In this document: one piece after another, positions 3,613 to 26,334 of the stretch
Layout of the letters: the number at the start of each line of letters is the position of its first letter
Numbering within the stretch: the first letter of the stretch is position 1
From: Promethearchaeia archaeon
GTDB lineage: Archaea > Asgardarchaeota > Lokiarchaeia > Sigyniarchaeales > SOKP01
Assembly (NCBI GenBank): GCA_046497275.1
Contig: JAWOFX010000176.1
Coordinates: forward strand, 1 to 32,000
Direction of reading: 5' to 3'
Length of the DNA stretch: 32,000 nt
Position numbers and translations under genes: made by a program
Notes under the pieces: generated by a model
What the model was told of the DNA's origin: nothing
The model's input: only the letters and a program-made list of their open reading frames with translations
Databases searched by the model: none

Positions 3613-4419
3613 TTAACTCTTACTATGATTTAGTTTTCTTTTGCATAATTCTTTTACAAAATATGTAGCAACCATCTCAGGAGTGGTTCCTGAGCCAAAG
3701 CCTGCATCATATCCTAATTCTTTTGCTAATTTATTTTCAATTCTTGCTCCACCGCAAATCAATATAATTCTATCTCTTAGACCCTCCGCCTCTAATAAAT
3801 CAACTAAATTGGTTAAGTTTTCCACATGAATATTTTTTTCAGTTACCGTTTGAGAAACTAAGAGCACATCAGTATTTAGTTCTATAGCTTTTGCCGCAAA
3901 TTTTTCATTGGAAACTTGGGCTCCCATATTATATGCTTCAATCATCTCATATCGTTCCAAACCATAATGGCCGGCATATCCTTTCATATTCATGATCGCA
4001 TCAATACCAACTGTATGAGCATCCGTTCCAGTAGATGCCCCTAAAACAATTATTTTTCTTCCTAAATGATTCTTGATATATTCATTAATTTCTTTGAAGG
4101 ACATTACATCTGAATCAATAGAATCTATTTTAATCTTAGTATAATTAATAAAATGGTCAACTTCCCCATAAATAATAAAGAAAGTAAATCCTTTATCTAG
4201 TTTCTTATGATATGTAATCAGTGGATCTTGTATTCCCATTTTTATAGCTAAGATCTTAGCTGCTTCTAACGCTTTAACATCTTCTTGGAGTGGAAGAGTA
4301 AAACTAATTTGAACTTTTCCATCATTCATAATATCTCCATAAGGTTTAACCCTCGTTAAATCCAAATTTGCCCTTAGATCTTTATTTTCTTTTAAATTAA
4401 AATTATTAGCCATATTCAT
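3613..4419 (-). CDS. kamE: D-lysine/beta-lysine 5,6-aminomutase beta subunit (AdoCbl-binding)
   Basis: VKPYGD..NDGKVQISFTLP dimerisation domain; DAHTVG base-off B12 motif; MNMKGYAGHYGLE containing the PLP-binding Lys; ATGA overlap with kamD. Confidence 0.97.
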   Translation of the reverse strand: MNMANNFNLKENKDLRANLDLTRVKPYGDIMNDGKVQISFTLPLQEDVKALEAAKILAIKMGIQDPLITYHKKLDKGFTFFIIYGEVDHFINYTKIKIDSIDSDVMSFKEINEYIKNHLGRKIIVLGASTGTDAHTVGIDAIMNMKGYAGHYGLERYEMIEAYNMGAQVSNEKFAAKAIELNTDVLLVSQTVTEKNIHVENLTNLVDLLEAEGLRDRIILICGGARIENKLAKELGYDAGFGSGTTPEMVATYFVKELCKRKLNHSKS

Positions 4420-6002
4420 CCCTCATTAAACAATTCTCTTTTCATTAAATCTATAAATGGATTATAATAATTGGGATCTTTCTTAATTATTCCTTCAAAA
4501 CCTTTTCCTCCCTCTAATTTTCTGCTAATCCCAGCAAAAATTCCATTTTCAATTGTTCTGAAAATACCGATTTTTTCAATTTTTTCTAATAATTCAAAAG
4601 CTCCATATAAAACATTCTCTGCCCTCTTTTGAATAATACCATCCTCCTTAAATGATATCTCTTCTCCAAATGACTTCATGTTATTGAAGATATACTGAGC
4701 ATTTTCAATTGATAATGCTCTATCAGAAAGAAAAGGCGTATGTATCGCTTCGGTTAGCATGCCAAGTAAATGGATTTTTTGATGGGTTAAAATTGTAATC
4801 ATATTGAAAAGGGCATCTTGGATATGTGCTTTATAAATATTACCTGTTTTGAACTTTGTAGGAGGCATATATTTAAGTGGGGCATTTGGAAAGATTTCTC
4901 TTGACATTTGAGCTTGTGCTAGTTCATATAGAAACCCATTTTCAATAGCTGGATCCATTTCAAAAGCATGTCCTAATCCCATCTGTTTTTCTTTCAAACC
5001 TGCAAGAAGAGCAAATTGTTCATTAATAAATTGAGATGCTAATACTGTATGAGCATTTTCAAATGCATCAGAAGTTTTTAAATAGTTATCCTCTCCAGTA
5101 TTTATAATGATTCCAGCATAAGCATTTAACATACGGGAAAAATGTTGATCAATTAAGGTTCTTTTCATATTAATATCTCGGAATAATATTCCGTATAAAG
5201 CATCATTAAGCATAACATCTAATCGTTCAAGTGCTCCTATTGCCGCAATTTCAGGCATACATAATCCAGAACAATAATTAGTCAATCTAATATATCTTCC
5301 AATCTCTTCGCTAACCTCATCGAGAGCAGTTCTCATTAATCGAAAATTTTCCTGAGTTGCATAAGTTCCACCGAAACCTTCGGTAGTTGGACCATAAGGA
5401 ACGTAATCCAAAAGACTTTGAGCTGTAGATCTAATTACTGCAATTATATCTGCTCCTTGTCTTGCAGCAGCTTGTGCTTGAACTATATCCTCATAAATGT
5501 TTCCAGTAGCTACAATCACATATAAATATGGTCCTTGTTTTTCTCCATATCTATGAATTAATTTATTCCGTTTTTTTTTATTATTCTTGATGATTCTTAA
5601 TGTTTCTTTTGCTTTTTCCTCAACCACTTGTTTTATATCATTTATATTTTCGAATGGTAATTTAGTTATATTTAGTTCATTTTCAGAAATACGTTGTGCG
5701 ATTTCTTGAAATGTGATGTTTTTTTGTATGACAGCATTTCCTAAGAATAAAGCTACTCCCTGACCTAAGTCTGAATTTTTTTTAATATGATCTACAATTA
5801 TGTTTGATAAAGGGATATCATATTTATCTACTCCATCTATACCGAGTAATCTACAAATCGTTCTTTCAATCGTAGTAGTTGTATATTTATTTATTTTTTT
5901 CTGAGTATTTAGTGCTATATTTTTTGCTAAATTTCTAGCCCTATCTACTAAGGCGAAGTCTAAATTTAATTTACTTCTTCTGAATTTATTCTCTCTATCC
6001 AT
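4416..6002 (-). CDS. kamD: D-lysine/beta-lysine 5,6-aminomutase alpha subunit
   Basis: TTTTIERTICRLLGIDG, YVIVATGNIYED, IAVIRSTAQSLLDYVP, NYCSGLCMPEIA, GEDNYL and KYMPPTK motifs; 528 aa. Confidence 0.97.
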   Translation of the reverse strand: MDRENKFRRSKLNLDFALVDRARNLAKNIALNTQKKINKYTTTTIERTICRLLGIDGVDKYDIPLSNIIVDHIKKNSDLGQGVALFLGNAVIQKNITFQEIAQRISENELNITKLPFENINDIKQVVEEKAKETLRIIKNNKKKRNKLIHRYGEKQGPYLYVIVATGNIYEDIVQAQAAARQGADIIAVIRSTAQSLLDYVPYGPTTEGFGGTYATQENFRLMRTALDEVSEEIGRYIRLTNYCSGLCMPEIAAIGALERLDVMLNDALYGILFRDINMKRTLIDQHFSRMLNAYAGIIINTGEDNYLKTSDAFENAHTVLASQFINEQFALLAGLKEKQMGLGHAFEMDPAIENGFLYELAQAQMSREIFPNAPLKYMPPTKFKTGNIYKAHIQDALFNMITILTHQKIHLLGMLTEAIHTPFLSDRALSIENAQYIFNNMKSFGEEISFKEDGIIQKRAENVLYGAFELLEKIEKIGIFRTIENGIFAGISRKLEGGKGFEGIIKKDPNYYNPFIDLMKRELFNEG

Positions 6003-6046
6003 AATATATTCAATTCATTTTTTATTATTCTACTAATTAAGCTATT

Positions 6047-7081
6047 TTATTGAATCCCTATATCAAATACAGGTATTTTGGTTTTCAATTTTAATTTTTT
6101 CATAAATTTAGAGCTCTCAAACCTATATCCGTAAGGTGATGTTGGATTTATGGCTATTGCTATTAAATTAATAGCTTTCATAACTTTTATTTCATTTCTT
6201 GTCTGTAGGAAATTTGAAAAAACGTTCCTTTCTACAAATAACTTTGTTGCATCTTCTATTATAATGGTAATATTCTTTTTATATCTGTGTTCTTTTATTA
6301 GCATTTTTAATAATTTATCTGTTAATGCTCCTCTCACTACTAAATAATTAGTATCTTCATTTATTCTGTCTAAGATTTGCTTTTCATGTCCTAGTAAGGT
6401 TGATATATTTAGGTAAATTGTTTTATAAGAATTGTCTATAAACCCTACTTTTGATTTCTTGAAAATATCTTTCGTAAGTTCTCTTATTTTTATGCTCTCC
6501 TCTCTGGGAAGTGTTAGAATGTTAACGGTATGTATGGTTTTATCTATGACAACCTCCATTTTCTCCGATACAGATGCACCCGTAGAAAGGATAACATAAT
6601 CGGAAATCAGAGGTGTTGCATATGATTTTCTATCAAAAGCTCCATCAATTAGTATAAGATCACATCCTAATTTCTTAAATTCTCCAATAATAGCAAACAA
6701 TTGATTATTAATCGAAGGACCCGCTAATTCTATGAATCCATCATTGATGGCTTCAACTATTTTTATATATCCTAGAGGGGTATTATAAGGAGAAGTTTTA
6801 ATAGTTCTTACTTTTACTTGACTTGCTTCAATCGTATCCTCGGCTGTAGCTATTATGGTATTCTTTTTTATAAATATAAGTGGTTTAGGTAAATTTGTAA
6901 TAATATCGTAGGGCTCTCCATCTCTTCCTATTGAACTTATTCCCAATTTAGTGTTTTTATTAAGATTTTTAATAATATAATTTAATATTGTGGTTTTCCC
7001 AGAATTTTTTGCTAATCCGACTATTGATATTACTTTACATTTTTTTTTAGTTAAGTCAAAAAAAAATTCCATGAAATCCAT
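6047..7081 (-). CDS. kamB: Lysine 5,6-aminomutase reactivating factor subunit KamB
   Basis: Walker A-like GLAKNSGKTT, SIGRDGE, AGPS, LIDGAFDRK, ILSTGAS, EDATKLF and INPTSPYG; lies directly after kamA. Alternative start 7072. Confidence 0.85.
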   Translation of the reverse strand: MDFMEFFFDLTKKKCKVISIVGLAKNSGKTTILNYIIKNLNKNTKLGISSIGRDGEPYDIITNLPKPLIFIKKNTIIATAEDTIEASQVKVRTIKTSPYNTPLGYIKIVEAINDGFIELAGPSINNQLFAIIGEFKKLGCDLILIDGAFDRKSYATPLISDYVILSTGASVSEKMEVVIDKTIHTVNILTLPREESIKIRELTKDIFKKSKVGFIDNSYKTIYLNISTLLGHEKQILDRINEDTNYLVVRGALTDKLLKMLIKEHRYKKNITIIIEDATKLFVERNVFSNFLQTRNEIKVMKAINLIAIAINPTSPYGYRFESSKFMKKLKLKTKIPVFDIGIQ

Positions 7082-7108
7082 TTCTCAAATAACCACCAAC
7101 TAATTGAT

Positions 7109-8353
7109 TTATTTAGTTAGCTTTTTTCTTCTTAATTTTCTTTTAAGATCTTCAGGTTCTATCGTGAGTTTATCTCCATTGAGTAAACCAGCAACTCCTA
7201 TTAATGGCTCTTTATTTTCATTATCACATTTGGGTTCATAATTTTTTGGTTCTTCATAAGTTGTTATAACACCTTCAAAATTTCTTAATACAACTCTCTG
7301 ATTCCCTTGTGATATTGTGTAATCAGGCATAACAGGAATTTTTCCACCACCACCTGGAGCATCTACTACAAATGTTGGAACACATAATCCAGAGGTATGA
7401 CCTCGTAGCCCTTCAATTATTTCAATTCCTTGAGCAATTGTGGTTCTGAAATGTTCTAAACCCATAGATAAGTCGCATTGATACATATAATAAGGTCTAA
7501 CTCTGATCTTTACTAGTTCATGAACTAATTGCTTCATAATATATGTACAATCATTAACCCCTCTCAAGAGAACTGATTGATTTCCCATAGGAATACCACT
7601 ATCTGCTAACATCTCACAAGCTCGTTTCGATTCCTCAGTTATTTCATTAGGATGATTAAAATGAGTATTAAACCATAATGGATGATATTTTTTAAGTATT
7701 TCACATAATTCGGATGTGATTCTTTGAGGCATAACAACGGGCGTTCTAGAACCTATTCGTATGATCTCTACATGAGAAATTGCTCTTAACCTTTTTAAAA
7801 TTTCTTCCAATTTTTTGTTTGAAATAAGAAGAGCATCACCTCCAGATAATAAAACATCTCTGACGTCTGTTGTTTTTTCAATATATTCTATACAGTTATC
7901 TATTTGCGATTGTGGAGGCGCTTGGTCATGATGGCCCGCGAATCTTCTACGAGTGCAATGACGACAATACATAGAACAATTTTCAGTGACTAAAAATAGA
8001 ACTCTGTCTGGATATCTATGAGTTAATCCTTTAGTTGGTGAGTCTATATCTTCATGAAGAGGATCCTCTAGATCTGCCGGTGATTTATATAATTCCCTAA
8101 TAGAGGGAACAGCTTGTTTACGTATTGGATCATCTGGATCATTAGGATCAATTAAAGAAAGGTAATAAGGTGTTATTGCCATCCTTAATTTTTCCAAACA
8201 TTTTCTAATATCTTGTTCCTCTTTGGCAGATAGAGGTAAATATCTCTTTAATTCTTCTATAGTCGTTATCCTATTTTTAACTTGCCAGTGCCAATCATTC
8301 CAATCTGAATCATTAACATCTTTAAATAACTCATATCTTCTATTTATCTTCAT
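7109..8353 (-). CDS. kamA: Lysine 2,3-aminomutase (radical SAM, PLP)
   Basis: [23 protein letters not shown], CxxxCxxC (CSMYCRHC, C126/C130/C133), LLSGGD, NTHFNHP and PGGGGKIP (PLP Lys). Confidence 0.98.
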
Positions 8354-8389
8354 ACTTAAACCAATTCTCCATAATTCTTAATATATAAA
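8354..8389 (-). promoter_or_regulatory. Possible internal promoter and RBS of kamA
   Basis: On the minus strand, TTTATATA (8389-8382) about 30 nt before the ATG and GGAGA about 12 nt before the ATG, within a 171-nt kdd-kamA gap. Confidence 0.4.
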
Positions 8390-8524
8390 TTAATTTAAAT
8401 CACTTTAATTAATAAATAAATGAAAGAAAGGATAATATTTCTAATTTCGGTATAGGTTGGGATATTTGTGGGAATTTAAATATGAAAAGATATTTAAATA
8501 TAGGAAAAAGTAAATCACATCTGA

Positions 8525-9562
8525 TCAGGTATATCTTTCTTTAAGGATCTGATATAATTTTTCATTTTCTCTAACTAGATCTAATGCAATATTAGCATGA
8601 TTTTTTGTATAGCCATTTCCTATAATCATATTGACATCTTTTCCAACTCCTTCTGCTCCTAAAGCAGCTTTGGTAAAACTCGTAGCCATAGAAAAGAAAT
8701 ATACAATACCCCCGTCTTTTGCGGGTAGGATAGTTGACATCTCTGTATTAGGGATGCTAAGACAATTAATTGATTTATCCACCTCTTCTCCATTGTTAAC
8801 TCTCAATGTTTTTTCTAAAACATCAATAGGATTTAATACTTCTGCAATTATTACTTCATCACAGAAATTCGTACTTCTTAAAAAATCTGCTCTTTCTTTA
8901 TTTCTTGCTTCACCAATGACTAATCCTTCTTCCCCGACTAATTTTTTTGCCATACAACAACACATTAAGCCAGATTTACCAGTTGCGCCTAATATTAGTA
9001 CTCTATCATTTTTTTTGACTAATTTTTTAATTTGTGCTGGAGCACCAGCGACATCGAATATTGCTAAAGCTAAAGTTTCATTAAAATCCGCAGGTAATTT
9101 TGCATAAATTCCACATTCAAATAAAATTGCTTTTCCTCTAATTTTGACTCTCTCGATTTCTGGTTCAATTTTTATAATCTCCTTTATTTTAAGAGGAGTA
9201 AGAGAAAGTGATACCAATGTCGCAATCTTATCTCCAATTTTTAAATCTCTCGTATTTTTAAGATCTCTACCAATATCTTCAATTGTCCCAATAAGCATTC
9301 CTCCAGAACCTGTAACTGGATTTTGCATCTTCCCTCGTTCTTCCACAATTTCCATAATTCTAGTTTTAACTTTTTCTAAATCATTTTTTGACTCTTTCAT
9401 TAATTGAGTAAAAGAGGCAGAGTCAATATTTAAATAATCCACATCAATTAAGATCTCATTATCATAAAGTTCCATCTTATTAGATATTTTATCTGCTGCT
9501 TGAGGTAAAGTTCCTTCTGGTTCAATTACTCGATGAGACCCATACTTGTTTTCTTTCAACAT
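8525..9562 (-). CDS. kdd: L-erythro-3,5-diaminohexanoate dehydrogenase
   Basis: KYGSHRVIEP.GTLPQAA, LNIDSASFTQL, GKMQNPVTGSGGMLIG, TLVSLSLTPL, ILGATGKSG (NAD binding) and FFSMATSFTKAALGAEG. Confidence 0.97.
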   Translation of the reverse strand: MLKENKYGSHRVIEPEGTLPQAADKISNKMELYDNEILIDVDYLNIDSASFTQLMKESKNDLEKVKTRIMEIVEERGKMQNPVTGSGGMLIGTIEDIGRDLKNTRDLKIGDKIATLVSLSLTPLKIKEIIKIEPEIERVKIRGKAILFECGIYAKLPADFNETLALAIFDVAGAPAQIKKLVKKNDRVLILGATGKSGLMCCCMAKKLVGEEGLVIGEARNKERADFLRSTNFCDEVIIAEVLNPIDVLEKTLRVNNGEEVDKSINCLSIPNTEMSTILPAKDGGIVYFFSMATSFTKAALGAEGVGKDVNMIIGNGYTKNHANIALDLVRENEKLYQILKERYT

Positions 9563-9615
9563 TTTTTTTAATTATTATTAATCAATGAATTAATTATGAA
9601 TTTATGATTAAATAT

Positions 9616-16894: not shown

Positions 16895-19534
16895 TCAAGA
16901 TTCTTTATTATCACTATTAATTTTCGCTTCTGGAATTTGTAAATTGGTTATTTTCTGAGGTTCTGTATTATATCCATTTTTTTCCATAATATTATATAGT
17001 TTTTCTGTATTCTTCTTTAAGGAGGATTCCATTATCTCTTCAGCAAGTAACACATATGAGAATCCAGTTAAGAAAGGAATACCCCAAAAAAATACTAATG
17101 TCATAAAAAACCCAAAAACTATATTCATAACTTCTCCTTGAAAAAATCCTGAAAAATCTACAGTTGAGAAAAATTGAATGAAAGTAATTATCGCAGAGAT
17201 TCCTGCTACTCCCTTAATTATGCTCTGAGCCCAAATACTGATTGGTTCTATATCCGCTGGCTGACGATGGCTTTTAGGCTGGCGAAAATACACTAATCCG
17301 GTATCATCTAATAGGAAGTTCCCCGATATGAAAAACGAGAATACAATATAGGTTAATATCATTGGTAAGATGCAGAGTAAATTGAAGCCTACTATAAAAT
17401 TGAAAAATTTTTCAGTTGCAAATTGATCAAATCCCGTTGGATATCCTAAAATGGGGGCTATAGTATTATAAGTATAGAAACCTATCGCGATAGATAATAA
17501 CAAAGGTAAAAGAATTCTTTTTAATTTTAATAATAATCCTAACTCATCTCTTCCTTCCATATCTAGCACAATTATATCATTATAGTATCTTTTCGAAATT
17601 TTGAATGAGAGATCTCTCAACTTTATAAAGAAATAAGCAAAGTTTGGGGCGAAATAATTGTAAATAGCAGCGGTGAGAGGTAATAAAGTATACCAAATTA
17701 TGGTTGTGGTCAAATATACTGTCGAAATTTGAGTCATATAATGTCCAGTTATTAATGTCTGGTTAAACACATTGATTTGAAGTAAGAACAATAAAAATGT
17801 TAAAGTCATGAGAGAGATGATCACAATGTTTACAATTACTGCCAATTTTCGTTTCTTTAAGTTTTGAAGCACTTCTCCGCGCCTAACTTTGAGTCTTTTA
17901 CCATTTCGTATTACCAGATACAATCCAATTAATAGCATCGCAATTATGATAATAAAAACAGGAATCCCTAGGGGGAAAATGTTTGAAAGAAATATAGGAG
18001 TTGGGGCTTGCGAAGATAATGTCATAATTGATTGCCAACTGAAAATCAGAAGATCATTTTCACCATCTCCGTCGAAATCCTCCATTGTTTGCCATGTGTC
18101 AGCCCATTGATCTGTATTTATAATTGCTAAATTTTTTTTAGTGAGTGGATTGATGATATAATATCGAGTAACATCATTTGGGGAGAGTAATGGATAATGA
18201 GGTTTCATTAAGACAATTTCACCTAAAGAATCATCATCAAGATCCTCATTAAGGGGGAATATTTTTGCTTCTCCATTAGAAAATACTTGTTCGTATTCCC
18301 AGAGGTATTCTTCACTGAAATTATAAGAATCAATTTCTTGTATAAAAGCCTTAATTTTATTCGTTCTTGGTTCTTTATAACCCCTTAATAATATAAGGAT
18401 GTAGGTTTTATTATTATCTTCTGTGTATCTCAGTTCATTAATTGTAGCATCATGATAATCAAAATCATCATCATTAGTTATATTATACGAAGCTCTGAGA
18501 GATCCATCTATTCCATCATAAATACTTAGATTCAACCCTTCATTTTCAAAATATTTAGTAAAAATAAGAAATTCATCAGTACCATCCTCATTTTGATCCT
18601 TAATTATCCTAAAATCTGATATCTGTTGTTGAAAACTTGCTATTAGGGAACTATATATCGGATTGAATGGTTCTAAGGTAGTTCGATTTAAAAGAGCAAA
18701 TTTAGCATGATCAATATACATAATATGTTCCTCTCCATGATGTAAAAATAATTCTAACCGTGGTAAATTATTTTCTACGTAAAAACCATGTGAATCGTAT
18801 TCCGAACTCATATAATAATTTAGTTTCTGCGTCCCATTTATAAAATAACTTGTTATATTAACATCATAGTTATCGAAACCTTCTATCGAACCATTAAAAA
18901 ACTCTAAACAAATTAAATCCTCTGCTCCATCCTCAAAATTATCGAAACTCAACAAATCAATAAAACCAGTTTTTGGAAAGTCTTCAGATGGCCCATATAT
19001 TAGATCTGAACCATTCTTACCTGATATAATCTTATTCGTGAATTGATCAATGAACATATATGCTCTCCAATCACCTCCTCCATTATGGGAATCAAAATAC
19101 CAACTTTCATTCACTTTAGCAACATTTATGAAGTAATCTTGAATCGCATCCCCATCTAAATCAGGTATTGGAAATACTTTTTTTACTGGTCCTTGGAAGG
19201 ATTTATTCCATATGGTCTTTCCTTTTAAACCATTAATTGCAACTATAGCACCATATTGAGGTGTATCATATAATATTTCGTCTGAATTCTCTCTATAATC
19301 GATATCTGCATAGGAGATAATATCTCTTTTTCCATCACCATTAATATCATCTGTTTCAAATCCTTTTAAATTGATTGAATAGGTTCCTTGAAGATCATCC
19401 CAGAACCAACCGGGTTGTAGCTCCATTTGAGTGATGAAGATCATACTTAACCCTCCCAAAACCAAAAAAGAAATTCCTACAAGTAACCAATTTATAGGCT
19501 GTGATTGTGTTTTTTTATTCTTACTTAAATTCAT
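16895..19534 (-). CDS. Membrane protein: N-terminal anchor, extracellular FG-GAP/VCBS-like beta-propeller and about 7 C-terminal TM helices
   Basis: DxDxDG-type motifs at aa 63, 125, 198, 313, 431 and 486; 10 N-glycosylation sequons in aa 140-410; hydrophobic segments at about aa 15-35, 521-543, 565-587, 607-629, 674-696, 714-738, 772-790 and 803-830. Confidence 0.75.
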   Translation of the reverse strand: MNLSKNKKTQSQPINWLLVGISFLVLGGLSMIFITQMELQPGWFWDDLQGTYSINLKGFETDDINGDGKRDIISYADIDYRENSDEILYDTPQYGAIVAINGLKGKTIWNKSFQGPVKKVFPIPDLDGDAIQDYFINVAKVNESWYFDSHNGGGDWRAYMFIDQFTNKIISGKNGSDLIYGPSEDFPKTGFIDLLSFDNFEDGAEDLICLEFFNGSIEGFDNYDVNITSYFINGTQKLNYYMSSEYDSHGFYVENNLPRLELFLHHGEEHIMYIDHAKFALLNRTTLEPFNPIYSSLIASFQQQISDFRIIKDQNEDGTDEFLIFTKYFENEGLNLSIYDGIDGSLRASYNITNDDDFDYHDATINELRYTEDNNKTYILILLRGYKEPRTNKIKAFIQEIDSYNFSEEYLWEYEQVFSNGEAKIFPLNEDLDDDSLGEIVLMKPHYPLLSPNDVTRYYIINPLTKKNLAIINTDQWADTWQTMEDFDGDGENDLLIFSWQSIMTLSSQAPTPIFLSNIFPLGIPVFIIIIAMLLIGLYLVIRNGKRLKVRRGEVLQNLKKRKLAVIVNIVIISLMTLTFLLFLLQINVFNQTLITGHYMTQISTVYLTTTIIWYTLLPLTAAIYNYFAPNFAYFFIKLRDLSFKISKRYYNDIIVLDMEGRDELGLLLKLKRILLPLLLSIAIGFYTYNTIAPILGYPTGFDQFATEKFFNFIVGFNLLCILPMILTYIVFSFFISGNFLLDDTGLVYFRQPKSHRQPADIEPISIWAQSIIKGVAGISAIITFIQFFSTVDFSGFFQGEVMNIVFGFFMTLVFFWGIPFLTGFSYVLLAEEIMESSLKKNTEKLYNIMEKNGYNTEPQKITNLQIPEAKINSDNKES

Positions 19535-19662: not shown

Positions 19663-20856
19663 TTACCTGAAAGGATATAAATTCGTAAAGGAACTACATC
19701 CTTTCCCTATTTCTGGAGTCATTCTTCCGATAATTCTGAAAATAATTCCTTCTCTACCACATTCTTCGCATTTATTAAAATCTACAATTTCAATAATATC
19801 ATCAAGTAAAATAGCAACTCCTGCGTAAGAATTTACACCATAAGGAGTTATAAATTCTGCTACACCAGGTTCGTTAACTTTATTAATTCTCTCTAAACTA
19901 TCCATATCTCTAAGAATCATATAAGCTTTCTCCTTTTCAAGATGAAAAAGAAAATCTTGATATTTTTCACTCCAATGCCCTCCACAAGCCACTGGAATTT
20001 CGGTAGCTCCATAATTATCAATAATATTTTGATAAGGAATGTTAAAGAAATCTGAAACTTTTTCCATAAATTCTGATTTTTCGACTGGATTCTCAAGTTT
20101 AACCCTTCCTTTTACTCCTTGCCAACCGCCTCCTCCTAACTGAACTCTAAAGCTATTATCCATATCAAAACCAGTTTTATATTTTTTTTTATAATCCATG
20201 AAATTCTTATACATGAGAGGCACAGAATTAGCAATTAAGGTGGGAGTTTTATTCTCTTCAACCTCTTTGAGAGCTTTTTTCATTTTCTTAGCATTAATTT
20301 CGATAAAAGCTTTTGGCTTAAAATGAGTAATGAAATAGAGGATAAATTTCAATTTTTTAAATTCTAAAAGATAATCTATATCATAATCTTCCCAAATTTC
20401 CGCTATATCACGATAAAAGAGATAACCACGCTTTCCTAACCATTCCCCGGGCATTCTGTTCATAAATGCAATAGAAGGGGCGAATAGAATCAATCTCTTA
20501 ATATTTTTCATATTTGAATAATCTTCAAATACATCCTTATAATTTTTCTTAAAAACTTCTATATCTTTTGGTCCTCTGCCAACTACACTAGGATCTCCTG
20601 ACGTAGATGAACTAATAGTCCAATGTGATAATTCTTCAAGAGGAATTCTTAACAGTTGGTCAAAAGTCCCATTAGATTCTTTGAAATAATTCCAATTGAC
20701 AAAGGGGATTTCTTCCAAATTTGATTCTTTGACAGTTTGGTCGAAATTATAATCTTTCTCTTCGCATAAATTTCTATAAAATTCACATTCTTCAGCAGTT
20801 TTCTTTATTTCAATTCTGAGATCGTTAAAAAACGAATCTGATGAGCTCTCATTCAT
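19663..20856 (-). CDS. LuxE-like acyl-protein synthetase / ANL-superfamily ligase
   Basis: ISSSTSGDPS (P-loop-like), LGGGGWQG, DNYGATE, LLDDI and FRIIGRM...GKGCS, all typical of the LuxE family. Confidence 0.75.
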   Translation of the reverse strand: MNESSSDSFFNDLRIEIKKTAEECEFYRNLCEEKDYNFDQTVKESNLEEIPFVNWNYFKESNGTFDQLLRIPLEELSHWTISSSTSGDPSVVGRGPKDIEVFKKNYKDVFEDYSNMKNIKRLILFAPSIAFMNRMPGEWLGKRGYLFYRDIAEIWEDYDIDYLLEFKKLKFILYFITHFKPKAFIEINAKKMKKALKEVEENKTPTLIANSVPLMYKNFMDYKKKYKTGFDMDNSFRVQLGGGGWQGVKGRVKLENPVEKSEFMEKVSDFFNIPYQNIIDNYGATEIPVACGGHWSEKYQDFLFHLEKEKAYMILRDMDSLERINKVNEPGVAEFITPYGVNSYAGVAILLDDIIEIVDFNKCEECGREGIIFRIIGRMTPEIGKGCSSFTNLYPFR

Positions 20857-21047
20857 AATTAAATAAATATGTAATTTAATAAAAATTTTAATTATTTAAA
20901 GAGGTAATAGTTTAAATATAGTGTGTTAAAATTTTGAATAAATGAATTTTCAGAATATTCTTATTATTAATCCTTGCTTAAATTTAAATAGCTTTTAAGC
21001 AAACTTATAATCTAATAAATAAAAAAAAATATAGATTCATAAATAAA

Positions 21048-21458
21048 ATGTTGAATATTATAATAGCAATTTTACAAATATTGCTTGCCTTAGGATTTAT
21101 TGGCTTTTGGATTTTTTTCTTCGTAGTTGAGAATAGAAATCCTGAAAATACTGAAATTTACTTAGCTTTCGAACGCTCATTCCCGGTACCTGACTTAGGA
21201 TGGATTACACCATGCTTATTTGTAGCTGCTATAGGATTAATTTTAGATGAAACTTTTGGAATTTTTTTTACCATTATTGCAGGCAGCGCATTGATATTTT
21301 TAGGTTTATTGGACATATCCTTTAATATCCAAAATGGAGGATATAAAAAATCCCCTTCTGAAACAATCATGAACTTGTTTATTAATCTTATATGTGTAAT
21401 ATTGGGGCCAGTTTTTCTTTGGTATGCATGGAGCATTATTTCTACCATAAAAATATGA
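21048..21458 (+). CDS. Hypothetical 4-TM membrane protein
   Basis: Four hydrophobic segments with conserved-looking polar motifs FERSFP.PD and LLDISFN; stop codon overlaps the next ATG (ATGA 21455-21458). Confidence 0.8.
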   Translation: MLNIIIAILQILLALGFIGFWIFFFVVENRNPENTEIYLAFERSFPVPDLGWITPCLFVAAIGLILDETFGIFFTIIAGSALIFLGLLDISFNIQNGGYKKSPSETIMNLFINLICVILGPVFLWYAWSIISTIKI

Positions 21459-22333
21459 ATAGAAGTGAGATTATGACTAAGAAAAAATTATTAAAAAAGC
21501 AACCGTTCAAAGATAAAAGTGCAATTATATGCGGAGCTAGTGAGGGTTTGGGCTTAGCTACAGCAAAAGAGTTTGTGAAATTAGGAGGAAGTGTATGTAT
21601 TAATGCTCGAAGAGAAGAGAAGTTGAATAGTGCTAAATCGGAATTAGAAACCTTAATATCAGATGAATCTCAATACATTGAATCAATCTCATGTGATGCC
21701 ACAGAGATGATAAAATTAAAACCATTAATCGAGGAGTTCATAAAAAAAAGAGGAGTTCCAGATTATTTAATAAATGTAGTAGGTATGGCAATGCCTGAGT
21801 ATATCGAGAATTTATCACTTGAGGATTTTAAAAAACAAATGGATGTAAATTATTATGGTCAAGTTGTTCCAACCTTAATTTTACTCCCACATTTTATAGA
21901 AAGAAGAAAAGGTCATATTTCGTTCGTTTCTTCTGCTGGGGCTTTTCTTGGTCTCATTGGATATGCCGCATATACTCCAACAAAAGCAGCACTCTTAGGA
22001 TTTGCTGAAGTTTTAAAAAATGAACTATCACCCTACAAAATAGATATTTCTGTTATATTACCCGGTGATATGGACACAGAAGGTTTTAAAAGAGAGAATG
22101 AATCAAAACCAGAAGAAAATAAAATAATTTCAGAAAAAAGTAAACTGATGCCACCAGAAGAAGTTGCTGAATCTTTTGTAGAAGGAATCCTGGATAAAGA
22201 TTTTTATATCACTCCCGGAGATGTGGGTTTTTTGTTTTGGGCAAAAAGGCACCTCCCCAAATTGGTTTTTAATATCCTTGATAAAGATCTTAAGAAAGCC
22301 AGAAAAAAATTAGGAAAAAACACAGATTATTAA
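21455..22333 (+). CDS. SDR, KDSR/TSC10 (3-ketodihydrosphingosine reductase)-like subfamily
   Basis: CGASEGLG, NARR (NADP-type), FVSS, YAAYTPTK and PGDMDTEGFKRENESKPEENKIISE resembling the KDSR-specific segment. Start moved from 21392 to ATG 21455 (or 21473). Confidence 0.8.
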   Translation: MNRSEIMTKKKLLKKQPFKDKSAIICGASEGLGLATAKEFVKLGGSVCINARREEKLNSAKSELETLISDESQYIESISCDATEMIKLKPLIEEFIKKRGVPDYLINVVGMAMPEYIENLSLEDFKKQMDVNYYGQVVPTLILLPHFIERRKGHISFVSSAGAFLGLIGYAAYTPTKAALLGFAEVLKNELSPYKIDISVILPGDMDTEGFKRENESKPEENKIISEKSKLMPPEEVAESFVEGILDKDFYITPGDVGFLFWAKRHLPKLVFNILDKDLKKARKKLGKNTDY

Positions 22334-22385: not shown

Positions 22386-22769
22386 TTAATCTCCTTTTTT
22401 CACTACACCCGAGAATTCAGAGAACTGTTTAAATATTTTGGGGTCTTTTCCTTCAATTTTCGCAAAAACATTTACAGCTGACGCCGCTTTTGGCTTATCA
22501 CTTGTACTTGCGGGAGTTTTTCCAAAAAATATACAGAAACCGCTTCCACTCATCCAATAACCAACATCTCCAACTTCACATTCTAATTGTGAGTTTTCTG
22601 CATCAATCTCAACAGGAATAGGCCCATATAATTCTTCACCCCATCTTGAGAGGTTAATTTCAAAGGGTAAGAAATCCCAAATAACTTTGCAAGTTTTCGG
22701 ATTTTTTTCTTTCAATAATATTGCTTTAATTTCTCCAATCTCTTCATTTTCAATTATTATATATTCCAT
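22386..22769 (-). CDS. Cyclophilin-like fold protein (DUF369 family)
   Basis: RWGEELY..IPV, VGDVGYW..G.GFCIFFGKTPAS and AASAVNVFAKI. Confidence 0.88.
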   Translation of the reverse strand: MEYIIIENEEIGEIKAILLKEKNPKTCKVIWDFLPFEINLSRWGEELYGPIPVEIDAENSQLECEVGDVGYWMSGSGFCIFFGKTPASTSDKPKAASAVNVFAKIEGKDPKIFKQFSEFSGVVKKGD

Positions 22770-22880
22770 TTCTAAAAACTCTCTATTTATTTGAGAAAAT
22801 TTAATAAACCCAACTAAATAAGGATTATTTTTTTAAAATATTAAAAGATTTAAATTCAAGAAACTCTAAATTATGATATA

Positions 22881-23300
22881 TTGAATAAACCAAAATTAGA
22901 GGTGAAAAATTTGGATAAAGAGACCTATTATGTATATTTGTTTAAGATTGGTGGGATATTTAACTGGATTATGGCTTTATCATTTTTGATTTTGAGTCTT
23001 ATTTTACCAAATGTTTTTGAATTATTTGGATCATCACAGCCACCGACATTGTTTTTTTTACATTCATTATTAGGATTAATTTTTGTATATGGAATTGGAT
23101 ATTTTATTGTAGGTATGGATATCAATAAAAATCGGGGATGCGTTTGGTTAGGAATATTAAGTAAGCTGACATTTTTTAGTTTTTGTGTGATATATTTCGC
23201 AGTAGGAGATTTAACATTCATAATAGTTTTATTGGGAACCTTGGATTTCATATTTGCATGTCTATTTATTGAGTTTTTAGTCAATTATAAGCAAAAATGA
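22881..23300 (+). CDS. Hypothetical 4-TM membrane protein
   Basis: Four hydrophobic segments (GGIFNW, FVYGIGY, GILSK, GTLDFIFA); TTG start. Confidence 0.7.
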   Translation: MNKPKLEVKNLDKETYYVYLFKIGGIFNWIMALSFLILSLILPNVFELFGSSQPPTLFFLHSLLGLIFVYGIGYFIVGMDINKNRGCVWLGILSKLTFFSFCVIYFAVGDLTFIIVLLGTLDFIFACLFIEFLVNYKQK

Positions 23301-23395
23301 GCATTTGAAAACCAATATGAAGATTTATTACTTATTTTTTTTTATTTCTTTTAATCAGATAAGCTTACTTAATTCATTATTAAAGGATATAACAT

Positions 23396-25426
23396 ATGAA
23401 TGAAAATCAAAATTCAAAGAACCATTCAGAGTTTCCATTTAGAGATGAAAACTTTAGTGTTGAAGAGAGAATCGAAGATTTATTGAAGAGATTAACTATA
23501 AAGGAAAAATTTAAATTATTAACTGGACGCCATCAATGGGAAACAAAACCTATTAAGAGATTAGGAATTGAACCTTTTTTAATGACTGATGGACCACATG
23601 GAGTAGCACCCCATAGTTCTGGAGGGAGGGAATGTACATATTTTCCAGTAGGGATCTGCAGAGCCGCTACTTGGAATCCAAGCCTTTCTTTTGAATTTGG
23701 AAAAGCCTTAGCCGAAGAAGTTAGAGAAATCGGTGCTCATATGATTTTAGGTCCAGGAGTAAATATTGACAGAACACCGCTTTGTGGTCGAACATTTGAA
23801 TATCAAACAGAGGATCCTTATCTAAATAAAAAATTAGCATTACCAGTTATAAAAGGAGTTCAGGGTGAAAGAATTGCAGCATGTGTTAAACATTACATTT
23901 GCAATAATCAAGAAAAGAATAGATATACATACAGTGCAGTCGTTAGTCAAAGAGCATTGGAGGAAATTTATTTCCCTGCATTTAAAGCGGCTGTGAAGGA
24001 AGCAGATGTTTGGTCTGTTATGGGATCATATAACAAAATAAATGGGATTTATGGATGTGCTCATGAAGAATTAATTAAAAGAAATCTTATGGAAAAATGG
24101 GGATTTAGAGGGTTTGTTGTAAGCGATTGGAATGCAACACACAATATAGAAAATGTTGAGGATTGTGTTAAAGCTGGATTATCCTTAGAAATGCCTCGAG
24201 CAAAGATATATAAACGCCGATATTTAGAAGAGGCTTTTTCTAAAGGACTTTTTGAAGAAAGAGATTTAGATGAAGATATAAAGCGTCTCTTAAGAGTAAT
24301 GTTCTTGGTGGGAATATTTGACAAAAAAGAAAGTTTACCATTAGGATGTAGAAATACTGCTGAACATAAAAATATCTCTAGAAAAATTGCCGAAGAGGGG
24401 ATTGTTCTTCTTAAAAATGAGGGGGGATTACTTCCTTTAGATGCAAATAAAATTAAGACAATTTCAATAAAGGGATCTAATGCAGATAGAGAATTTGCAA
24501 AGGGCGGTGGGAGTTCTGCCGTAAAACCTCCTTATGAAATCACCCCATTTGAAGGCATAAGACAGAAAATAGCTAGAAATATTAAAGTAATTGACGATGA
24601 ATCTCAAGCTGATGTAGTAGTATTAGTACTTGGACTCAATCATGAAGAGAATAATGATATTGAGAATTGGGACAGAAATTCTCTTGAATTACCTCAAAAT
24701 CAATTAAACTTAATCGATCAAGTTGCTAAACAAAATGAGAAGATTATTATAGTATTAATTAATGGTAGTCCAATTACAATGGATAATTGGATTGATAAAG
24801 TAGACGCAATAATAGAAGCATGGTATCCCGGCCAGGAAGGCGGGAAAGTAATCGCAGATATAATTTTTGGAGATGTCAATCCTTCTGGAAAATTACCGCT
24901 CACTTTTCCTAAAAGGCTAGAGGATTCTCCTGCTCATATTTCTGAGAAAAGATATCCAAGCAATAAAAAGGTTATCTATGATGAGGGTATTTTTGTGGGT
25001 TATCGTTACTTTGATAAATATAGTATTGAACCATTATTTCCATTTGGTTTTGGTTTATCTTATACTTCTTTTAAATATACAAATCTCAATATTAGTAAAA
25101 ATCAAATTAAAGATACTGAGGAATTAGAAATCTCTCTCGAAATAGAAAATATTGGTGATAAATCGGGGGCAGAAATCATTCAATTATATATCCAAGAGAT
25201 AAATCCTAAAGTGGAACGTCCTCTAAAAGAGCTAAAAAGATTTAAAAAAGTGTTTTTAACTTCAAGGAATAATAAAGAAATAAATTTTGGAATAAATAAG
25301 GATGATTTAGCATATTTCGATGAGGAGTTGAATTCTTGGAATACAAATGAAGGAAAATACAATATTTTAATAGGAAGTTCTTCTCGTGATATAAAACTGC
25401 AAAAATCGTTTGAATATAAAAAATAA
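23396..25426 (+). CDS. GH3 beta-glucosidase/xylosidase with C-terminal fibronectin III-like domain, cytoplasmic
   Basis: MTDGPHG, GRTFEY..EDP, KHYICNNQE, VMGSYN, VVSDW (nucleophile Asp), WYPGQEGG, PSGKLP.TFP, EGIFVGYRY and FPFGFGLSYT; no signal peptide. Confidence 0.95.
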   Translation: MNENQNSKNHSEFPFRDENFSVEERIEDLLKRLTIKEKFKLLTGRHQWETKPIKRLGIEPFLMTDGPHGVAPHSSGGRECTYFPVGICRAATWNPSLSFEFGKALAEEVREIGAHMILGPGVNIDRTPLCGRTFEYQTEDPYLNKKLALPVIKGVQGERIAACVKHYICNNQEKNRYTYSAVVSQRALEEIYFPAFKAAVKEADVWSVMGSYNKINGIYGCAHEELIKRNLMEKWGFRGFVVSDWNATHNIENVEDCVKAGLSLEMPRAKIYKRRYLEEAFSKGLFEERDLDEDIKRLLRVMFLVGIFDKKESLPLGCRNTAEHKNISRKIAEEGIVLLKNEGGLLPLDANKIKTISIKGSNADREFAKGGGSSAVKPPYEITPFEGIRQKIARNIKVIDDESQADVVVLVLGLNHEENNDIENWDRNSLELPQNQLNLIDQVAKQNEKIIIVLINGSPITMDNWIDKVDAIIEAWYPGQEGGKVIADIIFGDVNPSGKLPLTFPKRLEDSPAHISEKRYPSNKKVIYDEGIFVGYRYFDKYSIEPLFPFGFGLSYTSFKYTNLNISKNQIKDTEELEISLEIENIGDKSGAEIIQLYIQEINPKVERPLKELKRFKKVFLTSRNNKEINFGINKDDLAYFDEELNSWNTNEGKYNILIGSSSRDIKLQKSFEYKK

Positions 25427-25449
25427 ATGAATTAAAAAGGATTTATCAA

Positions 25450-26334
25450 TTAGTCTTGATTTTTTTTATCATAAATCTCTTTTTTGGATTCTTCAATATT
25501 AATGAGTAATTTTCCTACTAAGCGGTGACTAAAGATTTGCAAGAAAGAAATAATCCACCACCATCTAGGAACGAAGATTTCCCTTTTATACTTTCGAGAT
25601 GCTTTTAGAACTCTTTCCGCGATATCTTTAGGTTCTATAAGTTTGTAAAGTCCACCTTTTTCCTCGTAAGCTTGAACCCATTCTCTTAAAGCAGGGTCCG
25701 AATCCCAGAATCTAGATTTCGTGGGAGCTGGACAAACAGTAATTACTTCTATTCCTTGATCAGCCATACGATATTCTCTTCTTAATGAATCTGCTAATCC
25801 TACAATCGCAAACTTACTTGCGCAATAAGCACCCATATTTGGAACACCCGTTTTTCCTCCAGAGCTGGAAGTAAAAATTAATTGACCTTCTCTTCGATTG
25901 GGATTTTCTTTAGTTGGGGTGGGATGTCCTATATATGGAAGTGCTGCTTGAAGGACTAACCACATTCCATCGACATTTATTGACATTATCTTTCTATATT
26001 CTTCAAATGTTCCTCCATTCGTGATTGAAACCATTTTACCAATTCCAGCATTATTATGAATTATATCTATATATTTTTCCTTTTTCCCAATGGATTTTAT
26101 TACACTTTTCACTTCTTCTTGATTCGTAACATCCATTTCCATTATATCGACACTCTCTGCTCCCAGCTCATCTAATTCTTTTTTTAAACTACTTAAATCT
26201 GCTCCAGGAATATCTAAAAGATACATTCGCATCCCTAAGGGCGCAAATACTCGACAAACTTCTGAACCTATATCTCCTCCCGCGCCGGTTATTACAAATA
26301 CTTTTCCTTTATACCAATTCTTTTTATGTCCCAT
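25450..26334 (-). CDS. Classical SDR oxidoreductase
   Basis: TGAGGDIG, LLDI, NNAG, FTSS, YCASK and VCPAP. Confidence 0.9.
   Translation of the reverse strand: MGHKKNWYKGKVFVITGAGGDIGSEVCRVFAPLGMRMYLLDIPGADLSSLKKELDELGAESVDIMEMDVTNQEEVKSVIKSIGKKEKYIDIIHNNAGIGKMVSITNGGTFEEYRKIMSINVDGMWLVLQAALPYIGHPTPTKENPNRREGQLIFTSSSGGKTGVPNMGAYCASKFAIVGLADSLRREYRMADQGIEVITVCPAPTKSRFWDSDPALREWVQAYEEKGGLYKLIEPKDIAERVLKASRKYKREIFVPRWWWIISFLQIFSHRLVGKLLINIEESKKEIYDKKNQD

What the first reader, a model, noticed from the sequence alone, without database searches (positions are those of the whole stretch)
19663..22333. Divergon of a LuxE-like acyl ligase, a 4-TM protein and a eukaryote-like 3-ketodihydrosphingosine reductase (KDSR) homologue
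Seen: the SDR carries PGDMDTEGFKRENESKPEENKIISE (22061-22135), FVSSAGAFLGLIGYAAY and GMAMP. It is translationally coupled (ATGA) to an uncharacterised 4-TM protein, and both diverge from a LuxE-like gene across a 191-nt promoter region. Established (from memory): human KDSR has [24 protein letters not shown] and FVSSQAGQLGLFGFTAY; KDSR/TSC10 performs step 2 of eukaryotic sphingolipid synthesis, whereas characterised bacterial sphingolipid pathways use a different reductase; LuxE activates fatty acids. Inference: a module that activates a fatty acid and reduces a long-chain keto-amine/ketone lipid at the membrane, potentially relevant to the origin of eukaryotic sphingoid-base chemistry.
Basis: partly seen in the sequence, partly recalled or inferred. 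Interest (0 to 1): 0.72.

Follow-up and report, generated by a model that had tools for sequence, protein, structure and literature searches.

The report
Lokiarchaeal KDSR-like reductase with membrane partner
This Asgard archaeon has a real relative of the eukaryotic sphingolipid enzyme KDSR. Its lasting partner is a small four-helix membrane protein found beside it, or fused to it, in archaea and bacteria; the fatty-acid ligase next door is a recent insertion, and the genome lacks the enzyme that starts sphingolipid synthesis.

Summary
The genome is a Lokiarchaeote (98.9% complete). All three genes are real. The SDR belongs to the KDSR/TSC10 family (38% identical to platypus KDSR; family clade 100/99) but is soluble. 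The three-gene module fails: LuxE lies beside the SDR in only 1 of 30 Lokiarchaeia loci plus one sister species, inserted between two genes that face each other in other relatives. The ATGA overlap is private to this genome. The conserved unit is the 4-TM protein (DUF8058-like) plus the SDR: adjacent in 16 of 30 Lokiarchaeia loci (including MK-D1), linked in 20 of 48 bacterial 4-TM loci (18 with a 3-beta-HSD-type SDR), and fused in one protein. The genome has no SPT-like gene, nor do most bacteria with this module, so lipid salvage is likelier than de novo sphingolipid synthesis. The 4-TM model resembles EBP/sigma-2 (EXPERA fold), inconclusively. Trees favour a bacterial sister for eukaryotic KDSR but do not reject the Loki clade (AU p=0.40); no credible copy was found in 83 Heimdallarchaeia genomes.

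The parts
21473..22333 (+). KDSR/TSC10-family classical SDR, 286 aa, soluble, probably NADP(H)-dependent; likely start 21473 (21455 is a private upstream ATG)
21048..21458 (+). DUF8058-like four-helix membrane protein with conserved W21, Y38, E42, F45, D49, D89, N113; conserved partner of the SDR; possible EXPERA (EBP/TMEM97)-like fold
21459..21472 (+). 14-nt spacer with a GTGAG ribosome-binding-like motif conserved in close relatives
   Evidence: function inferred
19663..20856 (-). LuxE-like acyl-protein synthetase, intact motifs; recent insertion, not part of the conserved unit; one of three paralogues in the genome
20857..21047 (.). 191-nt AT-rich divergent intergenic region; no promoter signal above chance
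16895..19534 (-). FG-GAP-type membrane protein; faces the 4-TM gene directly in relatives that lack the LuxE insertion (marks the insertion site)

Best explanation
The functional unit is a two-gene operon: a DUF8058-like 4-TM protein and a soluble KDSR-family oxidoreductase. Shown: family membership, the catalytic residues, the lack of membrane anchors in the SDR, conserved linkage across two domains of life, a natural fusion, and independence from SPT. Inferred: the 4-TM protein supplies in trans the membrane part that eukaryotic KDSR carries in cis. It binds or presents a long-chain lipid through conserved intramembrane acidic residues, and the SDR interconverts its 3-keto and 3-hydroxy forms with NADP(H). 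Since the cell has no recognisable source of 3-ketodihydrosphingosine, the substrate is most likely a scavenged lipid (a sphingoid base or similar long-chain amino-alcohol from sediment biomass), remodelled or prepared for degradation. In bacteria a 3-beta-HSD-type extended SDR completes the unit, giving an oxidase/reductase pair around a 3-keto intermediate; most Lokiarchaeia lack that third gene at this locus. The LuxE-like gene is an unrelated recent insertion.
For: 4-TM gene directly upstream of the SDR in 16 of 30 loci from two Lokiarchaeia families and within 1.5 kb in 14 of 30 loci of a second, overlapping sample, including MK-D1. KDSR-like SDR within 1.5 kb in 20 of 48 bacterial 4-TM loci, 18 of them also with a 3-beta-HSD/OleD/HpnA-type SDR; SPT-like genes 0 of 80 and LuxE 0 of 80. 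Fusions: 4TM-KDSR (P0248, followed by the extended SDR gene), SDR-4TM (P0303, P0361) and extended SDR-KDSR (P0417). No hydrophobic segment in the SDR, and it lacks the N-terminal anchor and C-terminal hydrophobic insert of eukaryotic KDSRs. No SPT-like gene in this genome, in 0 of 54 family members, or in 13 of 16 other prokaryotic genomes (15 bacteria and Methanolliviera) with the module, against 5 of 5 positive controls. LuxE insertion.
Against: No substrate or activity was measured. Linkage is not universal: about half the Loki SDR loci lack the 4-TM neighbour, and several Loki 4-TM genes sit beside other genes. Related genomes are not independent, and several MAGs are incomplete. This genome has no orthologue of the bacterial extended SDR (best 70 bits against 450-600 for typical members). 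No neutral ceramidase or S1P-lyase-like gene was identified to support sphingolipid catabolism (the ceramidase search had no positive control). The closest bacterial relative (Anaerolineae, 55%) sits beside an SPT-like gene.
Confidence: 0.45

Rival explanations
1. The unit modifies sterols or hopanoids: a 3-beta-HSD-type dehydrogenase, a 3-ketosteroid reductase and an EBP-like isomerase or scaffold. This echoes the eukaryotic NSDHL/HSD17B7/ERG28/EBP set (composition recalled from memory).
For: The 4-TM model aligns over 135 of 136 residues with human EBP (Z 11.8, rmsd 3.0) and with the sigma-2 receptor (Z 10.3). Profile alignment to 8 actinobacterial EXPERA proteins scores 20.7, above all 100 within-helix shuffles (mean 11.9, max 20.4). 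By eye, Y38-x3-E42, D49 and N113 resemble EBP Y104-x3-D108, E122 and N193 (residue list from PMC4263179). The partner extended SDR hits HpnA, OleD and SdmB models below cut-off.
Against: EBP ties with MS4A/FceRI-beta (Z 11.6-12.0) and generic four-helix bundles (about 11), all below the Z of about 13 needed for helical bundles. Foldseek E-values are 0.2-0.4, there is no PF05241 hit, and HHalign probability is 4%. No acidic residue in helix 1 matches EBP E80. The SDR groups with KDSR, not with a sterol reductase, though none was in the tree.
Confidence: 0.2
2. The SDR is a true KDSR in de novo sphingoid-base synthesis, fed by an unlinked or unrecognised SPT.
For: KDSR family membership. Members of the same clade sit beside SPT-like genes in bacteria. 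In the family of MK-D1, 5 of 5 sampled genomes have both an SPT-like and a KDSR-like gene, and MK-D1 itself has both, unlinked.
Against: This genome's sole alpha-oxoamine synthase is Kbl/BioF-type beside a threonine dehydrogenase-like gene. In this family 29 of 54 genomes keep the SDR while 0 of 54 have an SPT-like gene.
Confidence: 0.12
3. First reader's module: LuxE activates a fatty acid, which the 4-TM protein and the SDR convert at the membrane.
For: The three genes share an intergenic region here and in one sister species at 88-94% protein identity. LuxE motifs are intact.
Against: Absent in 29 of 30 SDR loci and in all 80 4-TM loci from other genomes. The seven closest LuxE orthologues (48-69%) have neither gene within 1.5 kb. 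In relatives at 73-85% identity the FG-GAP gene abuts the 4-TM gene directly.
Confidence: 0.05
4. The 4-TM protein is a general membrane accessory of several SDRs, or is merely co-regulated; the KDSR-like enzyme has an unrelated substrate.
For: DUF8058 also lies between or fuses to two other SDR types in Aminicenantes and Eubacteriales clusters, and beside other enzymes in some Loki genomes.
Against: Those clusters are themselves lipid-type by eye (UbiA-like, DAG-kinase-like genes), and a direct 4TM-KDSR fusion exists.
Confidence: 0.18

Closest known systems
Eukaryotic 3-ketodihydrosphingosine reductase (KDSR/FVT1, Tsc10p; PDB 8JAT)
   Same: Same SDR clade (100/99), 35-39% identity to named eukaryotic KDSRs, catalytic residues and the family-specific loop after YxxxK.
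   Different: No N-terminal anchor or C-terminal hydrophobic insert; loop reads PGDMDTEG instead of PPDTDTPG; paired with a separate 4-TM protein; no SPT in the genome; activity untested.
Bacterial KDSR-type SDRs beside alpha-oxoamine synthases (Anaerolineae pair L095; Sinorhizobium pSymB PKS-AOS-SDR capsule locus, rkpA/G/H by my recollection)
   Same: Same family; the Anaerolineae copy is 55% identical and nests in the Loki-dominated clade.
   Different: Those are linked to SPT-like enzymes; this class is linked to DUF8058 and a 3-beta-HSD-type SDR and mostly occurs without SPT.
Bacteroides KdsR BT_0972 (NF049977; PMC9278070)
   Same: Classical SDR that reduces 3-ketosphinganine.
   Different: A different SDR subfamily: 87.5 bits against a cut-off of 400; KdsR-like sequences fall in the outgroup.
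EXPERA proteins (EBP sterol isomerase, TMEM97/sigma-2; PMC4263179)
   Same: Four TM helices with a short helix between TM1 and TM2, conserved acidic residues, Asn in TM4; top-ranked or tied structural match.
   Different: 9-15% identity, no Pfam hit, score tied with unrelated four-helix bundles; no E80 equivalent seen.
LuxE acyl-protein synthetase (PF04443)
   Same: Above the Pfam cut-off; SSSTSGDPS loop and C-terminal GCS motif present.
   Different: No LuxC/LuxD neighbours; three paralogues in the genome, usually in other gene contexts in Lokiarchaeia.

Membership tests
KDSR/TSC10-like SDR family | Classical SDR motifs (GxxxGxG, catalytic S and YxxxK, basic residue typical of NADP(H) use) | tested here: met
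   GASEGLG, NARR, FVSS, YTPTK align with eukaryotic KDSRs; the cofactor reading is inferred
KDSR/TSC10-like SDR family | Family loop PPDTDTPG..E.N..KP.E...IS after the catalytic helix | tested here: met
   Present with substitutions; consensus form in most Loki orthologues
KDSR/TSC10-like SDR family | Groups with eukaryotic KDSR apart from other SDRs | tested here: met
   97-row clade 100/99 against 7 outgroup SDRs, LG+C20 PMSF; small outgroup
Eukaryotic KDSR proper | N-terminal and C-terminal membrane segments | tested here: not met
   Max 19-residue hydropathy 1.44; segments absent in alignment
Eukaryotic KDSR proper | Reduces 3-ketodihydrosphingosine with NADPH | not testable with these tools
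   Needs an enzyme assay or complementation
De novo sphingoid-base pathway | Serine palmitoyltransferase in the genome | tested here: not met
   One AOS only, best model BioF/Kbl-type, beside a Tdh-like gene; genome 98.9% complete
De novo sphingoid-base pathway | Ceramide synthase (bCerS or LAG1 type) and CerR | not tested
   No search run
Asgard ancestor of eukaryotic KDSR | Loki clade is sister to the eukaryotic clade | tested here: inconclusive
   Best tree gives an Actinomycetota/Spirochaetota sister (93/72; 276 of 300 bootstrap trees, Loki clade 1 of 300); AU p=0.399 for Loki+eukaryotes
Asgard ancestor of eukaryotic KDSR | Present in Heimdallarchaeia | tested here: not met
   1 of 83 genomes, on a short contig 86% identical to a Loki copy with the same neighbour gene, probably contamination; not found outside Lokiarchaeia in the phylum sample
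Bacteroides KdsR (NF049977) | Score above curated cut-off | tested here: not met
   87.5 against 400 bits
DUF8058 (PF26247) | Sequence match to the family | tested here: inconclusive
   No direct hit in the Pfam copy scanned; homologues at 45-49% identity carry PF26247, and Atlas neighbours score 0.93-0.94
EXPERA (EBP/TMEM97/TM6SF) | Core of four TM helices | tested here: met
EXPERA (EBP/TMEM97/TM6SF) | EXPERA fold | tested here: inconclusive
   EBP Z 11.8, rmsd 3.0, 135 aligned; tied with MS4A and generic bundles
EXPERA (EBP/TMEM97/TM6SF) | Conserved acids at EBP E80 and D108 | tested here: inconclusive
   E42 (86%) is a plausible D108 equivalent by eye; no helix-1 acid conserved; no residue-level superposition available
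EXPERA (EBP/TMEM97/TM6SF) | PF05241 profile match | tested here: not met
LuxE acyl-protein synthetases | PF04443 above cut-off; ATP loop and acylated Cys motif | tested here: met
LuxCDE fatty acid reductase complex | LuxC and LuxD partners | tested here: inconclusive
   Only a weak partial PF05893 hit on another contig; LuxD not searched

The most novel reading that the evidence does not exclude
DUF8058 is a prokaryotic EXPERA-fold lipid-binding or isomerase protein that forms a membrane complex with a soluble KDSR-family reductase (and, in bacteria, a 3-beta-HSD-type dehydrogenase). Lokiarchaeia, including cultured MK-D1, would then use a prokaryotic forerunner of ER lipid-modifying machinery on eukaryote-type lipids, and their KDSR clade could be the source or sister of the eukaryotic enzyme.
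Probability: 0.12. Interest if true: 0.8.

Novelty: new variant of a known kind. Interest (0 to 1): 0.45.

Why it matters
Asgard affinity of sphingolipid metabolism has been claimed at pathway level (PMC12872458; 10.64898/2026.05.08.723234 names GBA2, SGPL1 and SGPP1, not KDSR). This case shows that a KDSR homologue in an Asgard genome is not evidence of sphingolipid synthesis: here it occurs without SPT, in a different conserved module. It gives an uncharacterised membrane family (DUF8058) a defined partner and a fold hypothesis. It also makes the question testable, because cultured MK-D1 encodes the pair and, unlinked, an SPT-like enzyme.

Tried and rejected
Complex prediction of the SDR dimer with the 4-TM protein gave no verdict (score 0.00); it is not used as evidence. 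The only RNA run for the MK-D1 locus is held as contigs covering the whole genome, so it says nothing about transcription. No viral homologue of the SDR was found. The LuxE protein has no significant PDB hit. Profile searches of the 4-TM family against PDB sequences and Pfam gave nothing consistent, and the Atlas structure search gave only unnamed or generic four-helix clusters. The promoter scan was at chance level. Supplements of two eukaryogenesis papers do not mention KDSR; paper searches for Asgard SPT and for rkpH returned nothing; the Caulobacter ceramide paper was not held. Rejected: the 'Hodarchaeota' and 'Thorarchaeota' labels on P0096, P0098, L150 and L154 as evidence of a wider range (Loki-type neighbourhoods in L150 and L154; P0096 nests among Loki sequences), and the single Heimdallarchaeia hit. 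My first guess of a recent transfer from Chloroflexota is not supported either: the Anaerolineae, Spirochaetota and Methanolliviera copies nest inside a Loki-dominated clade whose deepest branch is lokiarchaeal. The tree has no fungal, plant, cyanobacterial or named myxobacterial-family KDSRs, and one of the four identified eukaryotic groups rests on Dictyostelium alone.

Full report
Setting. The window is contig C155 of a 3.85-Mb genome, 98.9% complete. Named homologues of its proteins are from Promethearchaeota/Lokiarchaeota, and the same order contains Promethearchaeum syntrophicum MK-D1 (locus L135 has the coordinates of genome G038).

Observation. The three ORFs, the 191-nt divergent gap and the quoted motifs are present. 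The upstream gene passes the LuxE cut-off and keeps its ATP loop and C-terminal Cys motif. The ATGA overlap exists, but the sister species and other relatives lack it and start the SDR at the equivalent of 21473, behind a conserved GAGTGA-like motif. Translational coupling is therefore not supported.

The SDR is a KDSR-family protein. TSC10 (8jat) is the best single-domain PDB hit. I collected eukaryotic KDSRs; the window protein is 35-39% identical to the named ones and shares the catalytic residues and the family loop. In a 104-sequence LG+C20 tree the eukaryotic, bacterial and lokiarchaeal KDSR-like proteins form one clade (100/99), with Bacteroides-KdsR-type SDRs outside. The protein lacks the membrane segments of eukaryotic KDSR.

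LuxE is a bystander. Among 30 SDR loci in 29 Lokiarchaeia genomes, only this one has LuxE beside it; the same holds in a second sample and in 80 4-TM loci from other genomes. One sister species at 88-94% identity shares the arrangement. At 73-85% identity the FG-GAP gene faces the 4-TM gene directly. The closest LuxE orthologues lie in other contexts.

The conserved unit is 4-TM plus SDR. The 4-TM gene directly precedes the SDR in 16 of 30 loci across two families, including MK-D1. It is DUF8058-like. In bacteria (Dehalococcoidia, Smithella/Syntrophaceae and other deltaproteobacteria, with further cases in Spirochaetota and Actinomycetota) 20 of 48 4-TM loci have a KDSR-like SDR within 1.5 kb, and 18 of these also have a 3-beta-HSD/OleD/HpnA-type extended SDR. 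Natural fusions join 4-TM to the KDSR-like domain in the same order as here (P0248), 4-TM to a second SDR type (P0303, P0361), and the extended SDR to the KDSR-like domain (P0417). These genomes are related and the counts are not independent events, but the link recurs across several phyla and both domains.

No SPT. The genome has one alpha-oxoamine synthase, best matched by BioF/Kbl models and next to a threonine dehydrogenase-like gene. In its family 29 of 54 genomes have the SDR and 0 of 54 an SPT-like gene. Of 16 other prokaryotic genomes with the 4-TM- or extended-SDR-linked form, 3 have an SPT-like gene, against 5 of 5 controls whose KDSR-like gene is SPT-adjacent. Bacterial KDSR-like SDRs thus fall into an SPT-linked class and a DUF8058-linked class, and the lokiarchaeal genes belong by context to the second. 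The family of MK-D1 is an exception, carrying both genes unlinked. All SPT-like scores are below the curated cut-off, so 'SPT-like' is a best-match statement.

The 4-TM fold. Two confident models (pLDDT 94 and 97) put human EBP first or tied first (Z 11.7-11.8, 135 residues, rmsd about 3) and the sigma-2 receptor close behind (Z 10.3). MS4A/FceRI-beta and generic bundles score the same. A profile comparison with actinobacterial EXPERA proteins beats 100 of 100 shuffles but has 4% probability. W21, E42, F45, D49 and D89 are 86-99% conserved in 103 diverse members, which suggests a ligand site or catalysis rather than a plain anchor. EXPERA kinship is a lead, not a result.

Ancestry. The Loki-dominated clade is strong (100/99), its deepest branch is lokiarchaeal, and a few bacterial copies nest inside it, so the gene looks old in Lokiarchaeia. 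The eukaryotic clade's sister is an Actinomycetota/Spirochaetota group in 276 of 300 bootstrap trees (93/72), while a Loki+eukaryote clade is not rejected (AU p=0.399). The family was not found outside Lokiarchaeia in a 251-genome phylum sample (only the top 14 candidates per genome were scored), and the one hit in 83 Heimdallarchaeia genomes looks like contamination. An Asgard origin of eukaryotic KDSR is neither shown nor excluded, and the distribution argues against it.

Mechanism. Most likely the 4-TM protein holds a scavenged long-chain lipid in the membrane and the soluble SDR interconverts its 3-keto and 3-hydroxy forms; in bacteria a second dehydrogenase works on the same carbon. Family, architecture, linkage, fusion and SPT independence are shown. 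Substrate, direction and physical interaction are inferred. A sterol or hopanoid substrate is the main rival. An earlier scan note (e1-1353525) reads a similar extended SDR as CerR-like, which would fit a sphingolipid substrate; I did not test that.

Verdict. Observation partly confirmed, interpretation partly supported. A new variant of a known enzyme family in an undescribed two- to three-gene module; interest 0.45.

Noticed in passing
L104, L113, L114, L115, L118, L119 (Asgard family f8, genus g49): An SPT-like alpha-oxoamine synthase (best model NF047600, below cut-off) lies next to an SDR best matched by the Bacteroides KdsR or PRK06179 models. This is a better candidate for Asgard sphingoid-base synthesis than the present window.
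   Followed up: partly
L348 (G038 = MK-D1, C1:2881285-2882457): Cultured MK-D1 encodes an SPT-like gene, unlinked to its 4TM-KDSR pair.
   Followed up: partly
own genome C44:42000-58000: Two more LuxE-like genes lie among U32-peptidase-like, B12 radical SAM, sulfotransferase-like and CDP-alcohol-phosphotransferase-like genes (by eye); similar U32-LuxE neighbours recur in other Loki genomes. Possible lipid-modifying cluster.
   Followed up: no
L130, L131 (Ca. Methanolliviera hydrocarbonicum): Loki-type SDR-4TM-KDSR block at 59-65% identity, nested in the Loki clade: transfer or bin contamination.
   Followed up: partly
L156, L157, L160-L162, L164, L165, L170, L171, L098: Aminicenantes/Eubacteriales/Acidobacteriota cluster: UbiA-like, DAG-kinase-like and ThiL-like genes, SDR, DUF8058, SDR, radical SAM; an uncharacterised lipid pathway (the first two labels by eye).
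   Followed up: no
window 22386-26334: Cyclophilin-like gene, an unnamed 4-TM protein (about 22911-23300), a GH3 glycosidase and another SDR travel with the pair in close relatives; the glycosidase could serve glycolipid breakdown.
   Followed up: partly
own genome C168:6097-6924: Orthologue (62%) of the second SDR that flanks or fuses with DUF8058 elsewhere; unlinked here.
   Followed up: no
own genome C84:55076-55480: Weak second hit to the 4-TM profile (E 0.0004), possibly a distant paralogue.
   Followed up: no
window 3613-11557: Lysine fermentation cluster (lysine 2,3- and 5,6-aminomutases, beta-keto acid cleavage enzyme) with an inserted methyltransferase.
   Followed up: no
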